Shown here piece by piece: positions 58,704-60,902 of a stretch of 64,000 bases of DNA. How positions within the stretch are numbered: the first letter of the stretch is position 1; each line of letters begins with the position of its first letter. The notes beneath the pieces are model-generated. The model was not told the DNA's origin and did not search any database. It was given only the letters and a program-made list of their open reading frames with translations. This stretch comes from Candidatus Chisholmbacteria bacterium RIFCSPHIGHO2_01_FULL_52_32. Lineage in GTDB: Bacteria > Patescibacteriota > Microgenomatia > UBA1400 > Chisholmbacteraceae. A program made the position numbers and the translations under genes. Where the stretch lies: contig MHCJ01000003.1 in assembly GCA_001816585.1 (NCBI GenBank), positions 284,228-348,227 of the forward strand, written 5' to 3'.

Positions 58704-60902
58704 ATGCAATACAAGGGAAAAGAACCTTGGCAAAACGCGGTACGGGCACCCAAGGCGGCTCAATACTCATCCGCAGCCGCCAGGCTTCAGGCTCTTGACC
58801 GGGCAATTGATCGCCCCAACCGCCAGATGCTGGTCTTACTCCACCAGGTTCATGAGTGGGAGGACCGGCTCCGCCTGCGACTGCTTGATGGATTGGTAGA
58901 ACGGATGGCAATCAGCATCTCCGGCAACGAGGTGCACTCCCAAGGCATGATCTTCAAGGCTGCGGATGTGTCTCAACTCGACGAGGATCCGCTGCTTCTC
59001 AGGCACCTGCGGGATGCACGCTGTCCGCTCAAACGGCTCGACGTCGGCACAATCGGTGCGACGGATATCCGGAAGCTCATCCGCTGGGCAGAAGAGTCCA
59101 TCAGGGAATTTGGTGTGTCTCTACCAGGTTACCTTGAGCAGCTGCAGCGGGTGGCAACCCGGATCTCAACTGACCAGCTGGTCTGGACCTCCTGGCTCAT
59201 CTACCCGACGGACTTCTTGCCCAAGTTTGCCGCGGTCAGGTTCAGCCCGCTGGAGGTCGACGAATATCAGCTGTGGAGGTACGTCTCCTCGCTGTTCACC
59301 CCCGTCTCGGTGTATGAGCCAGAAGGCATACCGGGAATGCTGATGTTTCTGCCGAGCCTGCTGGGCGGAAACACCACCGCTATGCTGCCGGACACCGGCA
59401 ATCTGAGCGCGCGGGGGATCGGCAGCAGCGGAGGAATGTACCACCGGACCCTGCGCATCGTCGGACTCGGCTCAGAAGCAGTCGACCCGGATATCCCGAA
59501 TAACTACCTACTCCGGAACGTCGATTGGTTGAGGGACCTGGTTCTGCCTCTGCTGGCCTCCTCAAGGGAACAGATCCTGATCGCAACCAGCCTCTGGGGT
59601 GTCCATGAGAAAGGACGCAAAGCCTTCGAGAAGGCCGAAAGGAAGAAGATCAAACAAGCCGTGAAGGACTATGCCGAGGAGTCAGACCGTCAGGCGCGCG
59701 AAGTCGCATTACACGAAATCAGTCGGGACCACTCCCAGCTTGCGTTTCGCCAGAGCGTGGTCATGTCTCTTGCCGGGGCCAGCCAGGATGATGCCGACGA
59801 GCTGTACACACGGGTCAGGCAGACGCTGGATGAGCAACACGTCCTGCTGAGGGAAATCGATCATCCTGTCGAACACTGGGACAACTTCCGAACCTTCGTT
59901 CCCGACATCCGCCAACGCGACGTACGCATCTACACCGCCCCCGTACCTTCGGGCGTGGCCTCGGCATCGATGTTCCGCAGCCGGGTCCGGCTGTCTACCG
60001 GCATGGGAGCACTGTTGGGCTACTACACCTACCGCGGCGAGCCGGTTATCATCCCGGTGGGGAAAAAGGGCGGCGGTAACTATGTTGCCACAGGGACCAC
60101 CGGCTCCGGCAAGTCGCTGTGGGAGAAATACTGTGTCTACCAGCTGCTGCCCCTCGACCAGCGTTTTGTGTTCCGCATCATGGACAATACAGCCCTCTCC
60201 CTGGAAGCCAGGGAAAAGGCACGAGGCTGGAAAGACCTGGTAGAACTCTACGGAGGAACGGTGTTGTTCGCCGATGACCCGGAGTTCAAGAATCCGGAAG
60301 CCTTCAAGAGCCGGTTAGCCTCGCTCAGCCAGGAGAAGACGCGGATCATCCTGTTCACCTCCGCTCCCGACCGAGATGACCTCGACAGAATCTGGTTGAA
60401 ATGGCTGGTGTCTGACATCGAAGTTACCGGCCCCGGGGTGATCACGGTCGACGAGATGGTCGGTTGGTTCGTTGAAAGCGGGGATGTGCGCGCCAGGCTG
60501 TGGGTCTACGAGCTTTTGAAGATCATGCGGACCCATAACAAGATCAGCCTTTCGTCGATCCAGTCGCTGGTTCCCATCCTCAAAGACCAACCCGGCGTCC
60601 ATGGACAGTTCCTGACCCTTATGGATGGAGGGAGTTTCGCGTTCTACGATCCCAATGAGGCTGACCTGCCGCCCAGCCATGGAATTCCGGACCATATCTA
60701 CCCTGTCCAGGCCCAACAGATCCGTGATACCAACAGGACTCTCAAGCTCGGGAAGCTCGGTCCTCTGCAAAAGCCTGGTTTCTGTACGCTCATCACCAAA
60801 CCCTCCGTCGCAGAGGTGAAGATTGAGGCTGACCCGGAAGTCCTGGCCTTTCTCGGACGGAAGGATCCTAACCTCTCCGAAACACTGCTCTGGGGTGACT
60901 GA
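58704..60902 (+). CDS. VirB4/TraE/ConE-class P-loop ATPase (type IV secretion energiser-like)
   Basis: About 732 aa from the ATG at 58704 (GGAGG sits 5 nt upstream). Walker A GTTGSGKS lies at about residue 460, preceded by the IIPVGKKGGG loop. The large N-terminal domain, size and operon context fit VirB4 rather than VirD4. Confidence 0.6.
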   Translation: MQYKGKEPWQNAVRAPKAAQYSSAAARLQALDRAIDRPNRQMLVLLHQVHEWEDRLRLRLLDGLVERMAISISGNEVHSQGMIFKAADVSQLDEDPLLLRHLRDARCPLKRLDVGTIGATDIRKLIRWAEESIREFGVSLPGYLEQLQRVATRISTDQLVWTSWLIYPTDFLPKFAAVRFSPLEVDEYQLWRYVSSLFTPVSVYEPEGIPGMLMFLPSLLGGNTTAMLPDTGNLSARGIGSSGGMYHRTLRIVGLGSEAVDPDIPNNYLLRNVDWLRDLVLPLLASSREQILIATSLWGVHEKGRKAFEKAERKKIKQAVKDYAEESDRQAREVALHEISRDHSQLAFRQSVVMSLAGASQDDADELYTRVRQTLDEQHVLLREIDHPVEHWDNFRTFVPDIRQRDVRIYTAPVPSGVASASMFRSRVRLSTGMGALLGYYTYRGEPVIIPVGKKGGGNYVATGTTGSGKSLWEKYCVYQLLPLDQRFVFRIMDNTALSLEAREKARGWKDLVELYGGTVLFADDPEFKNPEAFKSRLASLSQEKTRIILFTSAPDRDDLDRIWLKWLVSDIEVTGPGVITVDEMVGWFVESGDVRARLWVYELLKIMRTHNKISLSSIQSLVPILKDQPGVHGQFLTLMDGGSFAFYDPNEADLPPSHGIPDHIYPVQAQQIRDTNRTLKLGKLGPLQKPGFCTLITKPSVAEVKIEADPEVLAFLGRKDPNLSETLLWGD

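What the first reader, a model, noticed from the sequence alone, without database searches (positions are those of the whole stretch)
58704..60902. Divergent VirB4-class ATPase with Walker A far C-terminal and no obvious canonical Walker B
Walker A GTTGSGKS is clear, but I could not spot a textbook hhhhDE Walker B by eye; candidates are VLFADDPE or IILFTSAPDRDD. The N-terminal ~450 residues have no motif I recognise. This could be a deeply divergent member of the VirB4/TraE family, the only T4SS component universally conserved, or a new ATPase family recruited to this module.
Basis: partly seen in the sequence, partly recalled or inferred. Interest (0 to 1): 0.55.

Follow-up and report, generated by a model that had tools for sequence, protein, structure and literature searches.

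The report
Divergent VirB4 secretion ATPase, CPR bacterium
This gene encodes a very divergent but intact VirB4-type motor ATPase inside a six-gene type IV secretion-like operon of an ultrasmall candidate-phyla-radiation (CPR) bacterium; it is an unannotated member of a machine already known in this group, and its supposedly missing Walker B motif is present.

Summary
The ORF is real: window 58692/58704-60902, + strand, 736 or 732 aa. It is identical to a "hypothetical protein" of Candidatus Chisholmbacteria.

- **Motifs.** Walker A GTTGSGKS is at residues 468-475. Its position, 64% along the protein, is normal for VirB4. A near-canonical Walker B does exist: G-VITVDE-M at residues 582-589. D587 is invariant in the family.
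- **Curated models.** Pfam, NCBIfam, PHROGs and PDB sequence searches give nothing significant.
- **Structure.** An AlphaFold model built on 14 family members (pLDDT 82) has full-length R388 TrwK/VirB4 as its top 14 Foldseek hits (E 8e-22 to 5e-13). EccC, HerA and FtsK score about 1e-6 to 1e-5. No chain described as a VirD4-type coupling protein is among the 50 listed hits.
- **Profile comparison.** Comparison with VirB4 of Gram-positive plasmids gives 98.3% probability (E 2e-14, 414 columns), covering part of the N-terminal domain and both Walker motifs.
- **Difference from references.** The Walker A to Walker B distance is about 100 residues shorter than in the reference VirB4s.
- **Context.** The gene order is conserved in nine further distinct loci: membrane proteins, ATPase, M23 (in some loci SLT plus M23) cell-wall hydrolase, exported protein. 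No relaxase, coupling protein or integrase lies nearby.
- **Verdict.** Interest is modest.

The parts
55612..56031 (+). g1: small membrane protein (139 aa from the internal ATG; the longest ORF starts at 55498). It is the first gene of the operon and a possible VirB2/PrgF-type component, judged by position and topology only.
   Evidence: Two strong hydrophobic segments. A 110-132 aa gene occupies the same position in L001, L006, L007, L014 and L015. No significant family hit.
56060..57922 (+). g2: 620-aa polytopic membrane protein with a C-terminal hydrophilic, Pro/Ser-rich region of about 280 aa. It is a candidate 'extended VirB6-like' channel subunit (inferred).
   Evidence: At least 5 hydrophobic helices. 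Conserved position and a size of 500-623 aa across loci, aligned as A6. The topology fits the description of extended VirB6 proteins in PMC12857230. No homology detected with Pfam or with hhalign against PrgH, TrsF, TcpH or TrwI.
57936..58655 (+). g3: 239-aa membrane protein with 4 predicted helices, directly upstream of the ATPase. It sits in the position of VirB3/PrgI (inferred).
   Evidence: Hydrophobicity scan. Present in 10 loci (alignment A5), with R121 and T208 invariant and N89, Y125 and R209 nearly so. No Pfam or hhalign match to VirB3, PrgI, TrsC or TcpD/E.
58692..60902 (+). g4: the finding, a VirB4-class ATPase (736 aa from 58692; 732 aa from the more likely start at 58704).
58893..59981 (+). 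VirB4-type N-terminal domain (approximately residues 68-430).
   Evidence: Modelled with confidence. Full-length alignments to TrwK span 724-839 columns. hhalign to PrgJ starts at residue 186.
60093..60116 (+). Walker A / P-loop GTTGSGKS (residues 468-475, Lys474).
60435..60458 (+). Walker B GVITVDEM (residues 582-589, Asp587-Glu588).
   Evidence: Strand at 582-587 in the model. D587 invariant. Aligned to the PrgJ FDE motif.
60552..60566 (+). SSIQS motif (Gln624), aligned to the conserved TQ motif of VirB4 that follows Walker B.
   Evidence: Q624 is nearly invariant. It aligns to PrgJ T709-Q710.
60921..62135 (+). g5: membrane-anchored M23 metallopeptidase (404 aa), the cell-wall hydrolase of the module and a functional analogue of VirB1.
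   Evidence: Pfam Peptidase_M23, E 3.9e-14. N-terminal hydrophobic anchor. Four orthologues in distant loci (L007/L008, L013, L014, L015) carry SLT_2 plus M23.
62145..62945 (+). g6: 266-aa exported protein with an N-terminal hydrophobic segment ending in VLAC (possible lipobox). It occupies the PrgL/VirB8 position; its function is unknown.
   Evidence: A 231-281 aa gene follows the hydrolase in nine related loci; L005 ends inside the hydrolase gene. No family hit.

Best explanation
The gene encodes the VirB4-type energising ATPase of a chromosomal, monoderm-style type IV secretion-like apparatus of a Microgenomatia (CPR/Patescibacteria) bacterium. It is co-transcribed with three membrane proteins upstream (g1-g3), an M23 cell-wall hydrolase and an exported protein downstream.

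Shown here:
- a two-domain VirB4 fold;
- intact Walker A, Walker B and the downstream Gln motif;
- a conserved six-gene order in several CPR lineages;
- no relaxase, coupling protein or integrase within 10 kb.

Inferred from what is known of VirB4 (R388 TrwK, pCF10 PrgJ): the protein forms hexamers docked on the cytoplasmic face of the membrane through the small membrane protein upstream. It hydrolyses ATP to drive assembly of, and transport through, a channel or pilus built from the polytopic membrane protein, while the hydrolase opens the peptidoglycan.

Because no relaxase or coupling protein is linked, the machine most likely serves interaction with a host cell (macromolecule exchange or pilus formation) rather than conjugation. 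This is what has been proposed for other Patescibacteria T4SS. The ATPase core is unusually compact: Walker A to Walker B is 119 residues, against 211-230 in reference VirB4s. The helical insert of canonical VirB4 C-terminal domains therefore appears to be missing.
For: - Identity and rarity: identical to OGY18426.1, a hypothetical protein of Ca. Chisholmbacteria. Only 16 clusters were found among 1.84 billion representatives.
- Model: AlphaFold on 14 sequences gives pLDDT 82.1 and pTM 0.76.
- Foldseek against PDB: ranks 1-14 are all R388 TrwK/VirB4 (E 8.1e-22 to 4.6e-13, 476-839 aligned columns). T. pseudethanolicus VirB4 C-terminal domain scores 1.5e-6, EccC 4e-6, HerA 1e-5, FtsK 5e-5.
- Foldseek against viral models: the top hit is Bacillus phage G Gp155 (E 3.8e-21), and 'component of type IV transporter system' is rank 4.
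- hhalign, family versus VirB4 alignment: 98.3%, E 1.9e-14, 414 columns, query 186-635 versus PrgJ 188-721.
- Depth-matched controls: VirB4 96.6%, coupling proteins 6.6%, FtsK-like 73.9% on the core only.
- NCBIfam VirB4-like CD1110: weak hits in 8 of 14 members.
- Motif conservation. Motif spacing.
- Synteny in L001/L002, L003/L004, L005, L006, L007/L008 and L013-L016. M23 or SLT_2+M23 lies directly downstream. No T4CP, relaxase or integrase domains are listed.
- Gene order matches pCF10 PrgH-PrgI-PrgJ-PrgK-PrgL.
- Literature: T4SS is widespread, chromosomal and relaxase-poor in Patescibacteria (PMC12102498) and essential for epibiotic growth in a Saccharibacterium (PMC12857230).
Against: - No curated model reaches threshold: Pfam AAA_10 E 0.11, NCBIfam CD1110 E 0.25 for this protein.
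- PDB sequence searches find only P-loops.
- TM-scores to TrwK are only 0.42-0.47 with rmsd 11-12 A. This fits two domains in a different mutual orientation but is not a tight superposition.
- The membrane neighbours show no detectable homology to VirB2, VirB3, VirB6 or VirB8, so their roles rest on order and topology alone.
- The Arg that is invariant in the reference VirB4 alignment (PrgJ R699) has no conserved counterpart here.
- Function, substrate and direction of transport are untested.
Confidence: 0.82

Rival explanations
1. It is a coupling-protein or FtsK/SpoIIIE-type DNA translocase (VirD4, TcpA-like), not a VirB4.
For: The ATPase core aligns to the FtsK-like TcpA of pCW3 at 74-76% hhalign probability. 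Foldseek finds FtsK motor domains at E about 5e-5. One family member has a faint Pfam FtsK_SpoIIIE hit, E 0.062.
Against: VirB4 scores are far better in both fold and profile comparisons, and they include the N-terminal domain. The VirD4-type coupling proteins score 6.6%, and no chain described as a coupling protein is in the Foldseek top 50. The protein has no transmembrane segment, unlike VirD4 and FtsK.
Confidence: 0.03
2. It is the ATPase of a virus or prophage remnant, either a packaging NTPase of a membrane-containing virus or a phage-borne VirB4-like protein. The GC-rich island would then be integrated viral DNA.
For: The module is a sharp GC island, 0.587 against 0.49. The compact core superposes well on the STIV2 B204 packaging NTPase (TM 0.71 normalised to the target). 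The best viral structural match is Bacillus phage G Gp155, E 3.8e-21.
Against: No relative was found in 2.9 million viral contigs. No capsid, portal, integrase or repeat boundaries are present. The same six genes sit among housekeeping genes in several CPR lineages. B204 covers only the core of about 200 residues.
Confidence: 0.04
3. It is a VirB4 homologue that has lost catalysis and serves only as a structural scaffold of the membrane complex.
For: The sequence is extremely divergent. The helical insert is lost. Glu588 is replaced by Asp in distant members. The counterpart of the reference-invariant Arg (PrgJ R699) is not conserved.
Against: Lys474, Asp587 and the P-loop glycines are invariant, and Gln624 is nearly so, over members only 19-22% identical. 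That conservation is what purifying selection on an active site would produce. DD Walker B variants are catalytically competent in other P-loop NTPases (general knowledge, not tested here).
Confidence: 0.08
4. It is a new P-loop ATPase family unrelated to VirB4 that was recruited to a secretion-like operon.
For: No curated family model reaches threshold. Only 16 clusters exist in 1.84 billion proteins.
Against: Homology extends over 414 profile columns, including part of the N-terminal domain. The fold match is full-length. The weak NCBIfam hits are collinear with VirB4.
Confidence: 0.03

Closest known systems
VirB4 ATPases of monoderm (MPF-FATA type) conjugation systems: PrgJ (pCF10), TrsE (pGO1), TcpF (pCW3)
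   Same: - Two-domain architecture.
- Walker A at about 60% of the length, followed by Walker B and then a Gln motif.
- Gene order: polytopic membrane protein, small membrane protein, ATPase, cell-wall hydrolase, small exported protein.
- These give the best single-sequence hhalign matches: TrsE 85%, PrgJ 67%, TcpF 49%, against TrwK 4%.
   Different: - About 14% identity over the aligned columns.
- It fails the curated NCBIfam and Pfam cut-offs.
- Walker A to Walker B is 119 residues instead of 211-230.
- No relaxase or coupling protein is linked.
- The locus is chromosomal in a CPR bacterium.
- The hydrolase is M23 (with or without SLT) rather than CHAP or glucosaminidase.
TrwK/VirB4 of plasmid R388 (PDB 7O41, 7O42, 7O43, 8RTB, 8RTD)
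   Same: It is the best structural match over both domains: E 8e-22, up to 839 aligned columns.
   Different: - Sequence similarity is essentially limited to the P-loop.
- TM is only about 0.45.
- R388 is a diderm system with an outer-membrane core complex and VirB11. The calls that list nearby genes show neither here.
The Patescibacteria T4SS described by Quinonero-Coronel et al. 2025 (PMC12102498) and Wang et al. 2023 (as reviewed in PMC12857230)
   Same: - Same phylum.
- Chromosomal and monoderm-type.
- No relaxase.
- Peptidase or lysozyme genes downstream of virB4.
- Strong divergence of the membrane components in Microgenomatia.
   Different: - It could not be established whether this protein belongs to their monophyletic 'Patescibacteria clade'.
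- A home-made VirB4 HMM matches it with 18 bits or less and covers under 25% of the profile, whereas their criterion required more than 50%.
- Their virB4 in Microgenomatia is typically near dnaA/dnaN, which is not the case in any locus seen here.
- No VirB2 pilin array is recognisable.
FtsK-HerA superfamily minimal ATPases (STIV2 B204, HerA, EccC, FtsK motor)
   Same: They share the RecA-like core. The compact C-terminal domain superposes on B204 with TM 0.71 normalised to the target.
   Different: They lack the VirB4 N-terminal domain. Their E-values are 15 or more orders of magnitude weaker than those of TrwK.

Membership tests
VirB4 / TraC / CagE-type T4SS ATPase | C-terminal RecA-like P-loop domain with Walker A GxxGxGK[S/T] | tested here: met
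   GTTGSGKS at 468-475. G473 and K474 are invariant; G468 and S475 are nearly invariant.
VirB4 / TraC / CagE-type T4SS ATPase | Walker B (hydrophobic strand followed by D-E), then a conserved T/S-Q motif | tested here: met
   VITVDE at 583-588 and SIQS at 622-625. They align to PrgJ FDE (D676-E677) and TQ (T709-Q710).
VirB4 / TraC / CagE-type T4SS ATPase | VirB4-specific N-terminal domain of about 400 residues preceding the ATPase domain | tested here: met
   Foldseek gives full-length matches to TrwK chains (E to 8e-22), against 1.5e-6 for a VirB4 C-terminal domain alone. The hhalign alignment starts at residue 186.
VirB4 / TraC / CagE-type T4SS ATPase | Scores above the curated cut-off of a VirB4 family model (Pfam AAA_10, CagE_TrbE_VirB, DUF87; NCBIfam CD1110, TraC-F) | tested here: not met
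   AAA_10 scores 11.9 bits against a cut-off of 27.5. CD1110 scores 9.5 bits against 325. The best family member reaches E 9.4e-5.
VirB4 / TraC / CagE-type T4SS ATPase | Helical insert (bundle) between Walker A and Walker B of the C-terminal domain | tested here: not met
   Over 100 PrgJ residues have no counterpart in the hhalign alignment. Spacing is 119 residues against 211-230. The model shows only alternating short helices and strands at 493-587. This rests on a predicted structure.
VirB4 / TraC / CagE-type T4SS ATPase | Encoded with other T4SS components (VirB3, VirB6 or VirB8-like membrane proteins; VirB1-like hydrolase) | tested here: inconclusive
   The hydrolase is present (M23; SLT_2+M23 in relatives) and the gene order matches pCF10. 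The membrane proteins match only in topology and position, with no detectable homology.
VirB4 / TraC / CagE-type T4SS ATPase | Hexameric, membrane-associated ATPase activity required for secretion or pilus assembly | not testable with these tools
   This needs biochemistry, cryo-EM and genetics.
Patescibacteria-clade VirB4 (PMC12102498) | Recovered by the CONJScan VirB4 profile (i-Evalue < 0.001, more than 50% profile coverage) and nested in the monophyletic Patescibacteria clade | tested here: inconclusive
   The CONJScan profile was not available. A proxy HMM built from 17 VirB4s gives 18 bits or less and under 25% coverage. The stored supplement does not list these accessions. Chisholmbacteria and Gottesmanbacteria genomes are marked 'VirB4 present', but the protein responsible is unknown.
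VirD4/TraG-type coupling protein (T4CP) | N-terminal transmembrane helices and a T4CP nucleotide-binding plus all-alpha domain | tested here: not met
   No hydrophobic segment was found. hhalign to three T4CPs gives 6.6%. No chain described as a coupling protein is in the Foldseek top 50.
FtsK/SpoIIIE and HerA translocases | Best homology to the FtsK or HerA motor domain | tested here: not met
   The core alone matches at E 1e-5 to 5e-5, against 8e-22 for VirB4. TcpA/TcpB score 74% on the core only.

The most novel reading that the evidence does not exclude
The family represents a second, cryptic T4SS lineage of Microgenomatia and WWE3. It would be invisible to the standard VirB4 profiles and would coexist with the canonical dnaA-linked Patescibacteria T4SS in the same genomes. 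It would be built around a minimised VirB4 lacking the helical insert, and would move between genomes as a self-contained cassette of about 7 kb. The cassette idea rests on the sharp GC island, with GC3 of 0.64-0.81 against 0.49-0.58, in two Chisholmbacteria-type genomes.
Probability: 0.2. Interest if true: 0.6.

Novelty: new member of a known kind. Interest (0 to 1): 0.35.

Why it matters
T4SS genes are essential for the epibiotic growth of the one genetically tractable Patescibacterium (PMC12857230), and the class Microgenomatia is where T4SS components have been hardest to recognise (PMC12102498). This result has three consequences.

- A protein filed as 'hypothetical', and missed by Pfam and NCBIfam, is a bona fide VirB4-fold ATPase. 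HMM-based censuses may therefore undercount or misassign T4SS in CPR genomes.
- The conserved neighbours g1, g2, g3 and g6 become candidates for the 'missing' VirB2/3/6/8-type parts in this class.
- The compact core, with Walker A to Walker B about 100 residues shorter, is a natural minimal VirB4 that could help define which parts of the motor are dispensable.

It does not reveal a new kind of machine.

Tried and rejected
- **Curated libraries.** Pfam, PHROGs and NCBIfam on the protein and its neighbours gave nothing significant except M23. PADLOC was not run.
- **PDB by sequence.** Both a single sequence and a 14-sequence profile found only P-loop matches: ABC ATPases, KaiC and UvrA.
- **Word-indexed homologue search.** It found only one relative. 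Repeating it with the family alignment added nothing, so that search was wasted.
- **AlphaFold with two sequences.** pLDDT was 33, which is unusable. The 14-sequence alignment solved this.
- **Neighbour genes.** Pfam on ten g3 and eight g2 orthologues, and hhalign against 29 reference T4SS proteins of pCF10, pGO1, pCW3 and R388, all gave probabilities of 1.1% or less.
- **Wider scans for relatives.** One locus in genome representatives, one in JGI metagenome contigs and none in viral contigs. The 14-sequence alignment was too diverse for pattern design.
- **Supplement of PMC12102498.** The aim was to learn whether the authors had called this protein VirB4. The stored file is truncated and lacks these accessions.
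- **Mobile-element boundaries.** Only short chance-level repeats surround the GC island. The only tRNA genes lie at 26.9-27.1 kb and 43.1-44.3 kb, more than 11 kb upstream of it.
- **Rejected readings.** T4CP, FtsK, HerA, a viral packaging ATPase and a convergent new family; see the rival explanations.
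Full report
**Observation**

The window has one long open frame on the + strand, from 58692 to 60902 (736 codons). It is preceded by GGAGG at 58694-58698, and a 732-aa cluster member from another Chisholmbacteria genome begins there. I therefore regard 58704 as the more likely start.

The translation is identical to NCBI OGY18426.1, a "hypothetical protein" of a Candidatus Chisholmbacteria metagenome-assembled genome on a contig of 956 kb. The rest of the window carries housekeeping genes: DNA polymerase III alpha, CTP synthase, transketolase, ATP synthase and PEP synthase. This is chromosome, not plasmid.

**Motifs**

Walker A GTTGSGKS is at residues 468-475 (nt 60093-60116).

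- The structure model places a beta strand at 582-587.
- Asp587 is invariant in 14 family members whose identity to this protein goes down to 19%. Glu588 is Glu in the closer members and Asp in the distant ones.
- Profile alignment puts the motif on the FDE Walker B of PrgJ.
- A nearly invariant Gln624 (SIQS) aligns with the VirB4 TQ motif.
- Walker A at 64% of the length is normal: TcpF is at 59% and PrgJ at 59%. VirB4 proteins carry a large N-terminal domain.

**Family assignment**

Standard sequence tools fail.

- Pfam gives AAA_22 at E 0.015 and AAA_10 at E 0.11.
- NCBIfam gives the VirB4-like CD1110 model at E 0.25.
- PHROGs gives nothing.
- PDB sequence searches return only P-loops.

An exhaustive HMMER scan of 1.84 billion cluster representatives found only 16 proteins. 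They come from Chisholmbacteria, Gottesmanbacteria, WWE3/Katanobacteria and unnamed metagenome bins.

With 14 of these as alignment, AlphaFold2 gave a confident model: pLDDT 82.1 and pTM 0.76. A two-sequence alignment had given pLDDT 33.

Foldseek against the PDB ranks 14 chains of R388 TrwK/VirB4 first.

| Match | E-value | Note |
|---|---|---|
| R388 TrwK/VirB4, ranks 1-14 | 8.1e-22 to 4.6e-13 | 476-839 aligned columns |
| Thermoanaerobacter VirB4 C-terminal domain | 1.5e-6 | one domain only |
| EccC | 4e-6 | |
| HerA | 1e-5 | |
| STIV2 B204 | 2e-5 | |
| FtsK | 5e-5 | |

No VirD4-type coupling protein is in the top 50. A VirB4 C-terminal domain alone scores 15 orders of magnitude worse than full-length TrwK, so the N-terminal domain contributes most of the signal. 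TM-scores are moderate (0.42-0.47, rmsd 11-12 A). I attribute this to a different relative orientation of the two domains; it is a caveat.

Against viral models, the best matches are Bacillus phage G Gp155 (3.8e-21) and a protein labelled as a component of a type IV transporter system.

**Profile comparisons**

I fetched PrgJ, TrsE, TcpF and TrwK from pCF10, pGO1, pCW3 and R388, plus PrgJ relatives.

- hhalign of the family against this 17-sequence VirB4 alignment gives 98.3% probability, E 1.9e-14 and 414 aligned columns. The alignment runs from residue 186 to 635 of the query and covers both Walker motifs.
- Depth-matched controls give VirB4 (4 sequences) 96.6% with E 6.6e-10, VirD4-type coupling proteins (3 sequences) 6.6%, and FtsK-like TcpA/TcpB 73.9% on the ATPase core only.
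- Eight of the 14 family members weakly hit NCBIfam 'VirB4-like conjugal transfer ATPase, CD1110 family', best E 9.4e-5.
- Single-sequence comparisons favour the monoderm VirB4s (TrsE 85%, PrgJ 67%, TcpF 49%) over TrwK (4%).

**What differs from reference VirB4s**

In the hhalign alignment, more than 100 PrgJ residues between the strand after Walker A and the Walker B strand have no counterpart. The Walker A to Walker B distance is 119 residues, against 211-230 in PrgJ, TcpF and TrsE. The model shows only a plain alternation of short helices and strands there.

The compact core superposes well on the minimal FtsK-HerA ATPase B204 (TM 0.71 normalised to the target). The helical insert of canonical VirB4 C-terminal domains therefore seems to be absent. 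This is inferred from a predicted structure.

**Context**

The ATPase is the fourth gene of a tightly spaced, co-directional set (gaps of 9-48 nt).

| Gene | Coordinates | Product |
|---|---|---|
| g1 | 55612-56031 | small membrane protein |
| g2 | 56060-57922 | 620 aa, at least 5 hydrophobic helices plus a Pro-rich hydrophilic tail |
| g3 | 57936-58655 | four hydrophobic helices |
| g4 | 58692/58704-60902 | the ATPase |
| g5 | 60921-62135 | membrane-anchored M23 peptidase, E 3.9e-14 |
| g6 | 62145-62945 | exported protein, possible lipoprotein |

- The same order recurs around relatives that share only 20-62% identity with this ATPase: in L001/L002, L003/L004, L005, L006 (Gottesmanbacteria), L007/L008 (WWE3) and L013-L016.
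- In four of the distant groups the hydrolase carries SLT_2 plus M23. This resembles the bifunctional VirB1-type hydrolases of Gram-positive T4SS.
- A Band_7/SPFH gene directly precedes the module in four loci.
- In the seven loci with wide flanks (L001, L006, L007/L008, L013-L016), none has a relaxase, coupling protein or integrase domain within 10 kb. Their neighbours are housekeeping genes: ThrRS, IF3, L20, MreB, PBP2 and HisRS.
- The order mirrors PrgH-PrgI-PrgJ-PrgK-PrgL of pCF10.
- Homology of g1, g2, g3 and g6 to VirB2, VirB6, VirB3 or VirB8 could not be detected. Their roles are inferred from position and topology only.

**Mechanism**

The shown parts are the VirB4 fold, intact catalytic motifs and a conserved T4SS-like operon without conjugation genes.

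The inferred parts come from what is known for TrwK and PrgJ. The protein would form hexamers at the membrane, docked through the upstream small membrane protein. It would power assembly of, and transport through, a channel or pilus made with the polytopic protein, while the M23 enzyme opens the wall.

The published picture for Patescibacteria is of chromosomal, relaxase-poor T4SS that are essential for epibiotic growth in a Saccharibacterium (PMC12102498; PMC12857230). On that basis I consider host interaction more likely than conjugation, at about 50% for that specific step.

**Relation to the published Patescibacteria T4SS**

This could not be settled.

- Chisholmbacteria and Gottesmanbacteria genomes are scored 'VirB4 present' in Table S1 of PMC12102498. 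The truncated supplement does not show which protein was counted.
- A proxy VirB4 HMM matches this family with at most 18 bits and under 25% profile coverage, below that study's 50% coverage rule.
- Their Microgenomatia virB4 genes are typically near dnaA/dnaN. None of the loci here is.

These genomes may therefore hold a second, canonical system. This is untested.

**Novelty and score**

VirB4-driven T4SS in CPR bacteria are known. This is an unannotated, unusually divergent and compact member. I rate it 'new member of a known kind', bordering on a variant because of the shortened core, with interest 0.35.

The most novel reading not excluded is a cryptic second T4SS lineage that moves as a GC-rich cassette. 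I give it a probability of 0.2.

Noticed in passing
window 55500-63000 (also L001 2743-10098): The six-gene module is a sharply bounded GC island: GC 0.587 and GC3 0.64-0.81, against flanks at 0.49 and host genes at GC3 0.49-0.58. The same holds in the related genome L001 (0.566 against 0.39-0.46). The excess is smaller, 0-5 points against either flank (L016's left flank is 0.515 against 0.523), in the more distant loci. No integrase, adjacent tRNA or flanking repeats were found.
   Followed up: partly
L006 5970-7016, L007 6359-7357, L014 6299-7237, L015 6298-7341; L001 12422-13675: A Band_7/SPFH-family gene lies directly upstream of the module in four distant loci and 2.3 kb downstream in L001. 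It may be a seventh conserved component. It is not seen upstream in the window.
   Followed up: no
window 63459-64000 (- strand, runs off the end): A convergent gene downstream of the module is conserved next to it in L001 (502 aa, 60% identity), L016 and L017, and has no family hit. In the Gottesmanbacteria-type loci a Peptidase_C39_2-like 500-aa gene plus a 196-aa gene sit there instead.
   Followed up: partly
window 57300-57750 (residues ~415-560 of g2): The C-terminal part of the 620-aa membrane protein has a long Pro/Ser/Gly-rich low-complexity stretch followed by a conserved terminal domain of about 60 residues. The same layout occurs in L001.
   Followed up: no
window 60315-61841 (- strand): A 508-codon antisense ORF overlaps the end of the ATPase gene and the M23 gene. 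It is most likely a by-product of the high GC content, not a gene.
   Followed up: no
BFVD entries G3MBM1 / G3MBM2 (Bacillus phage G Gp155 / Gp156): The best viral structural match to the model is an unannotated protein of the giant Bacillus phage G (E 3.8e-21, TM 0.57 normalised to the target). This suggests a VirB4-like ATPase in that phage.
   Followed up: no
window 26941-27109 and 43088-44266: The window holds two small tRNA clusters: Lys and Glu in one, Asp, Gly and Thr in the other. Neither adjoins the GC island.
   Followed up: no
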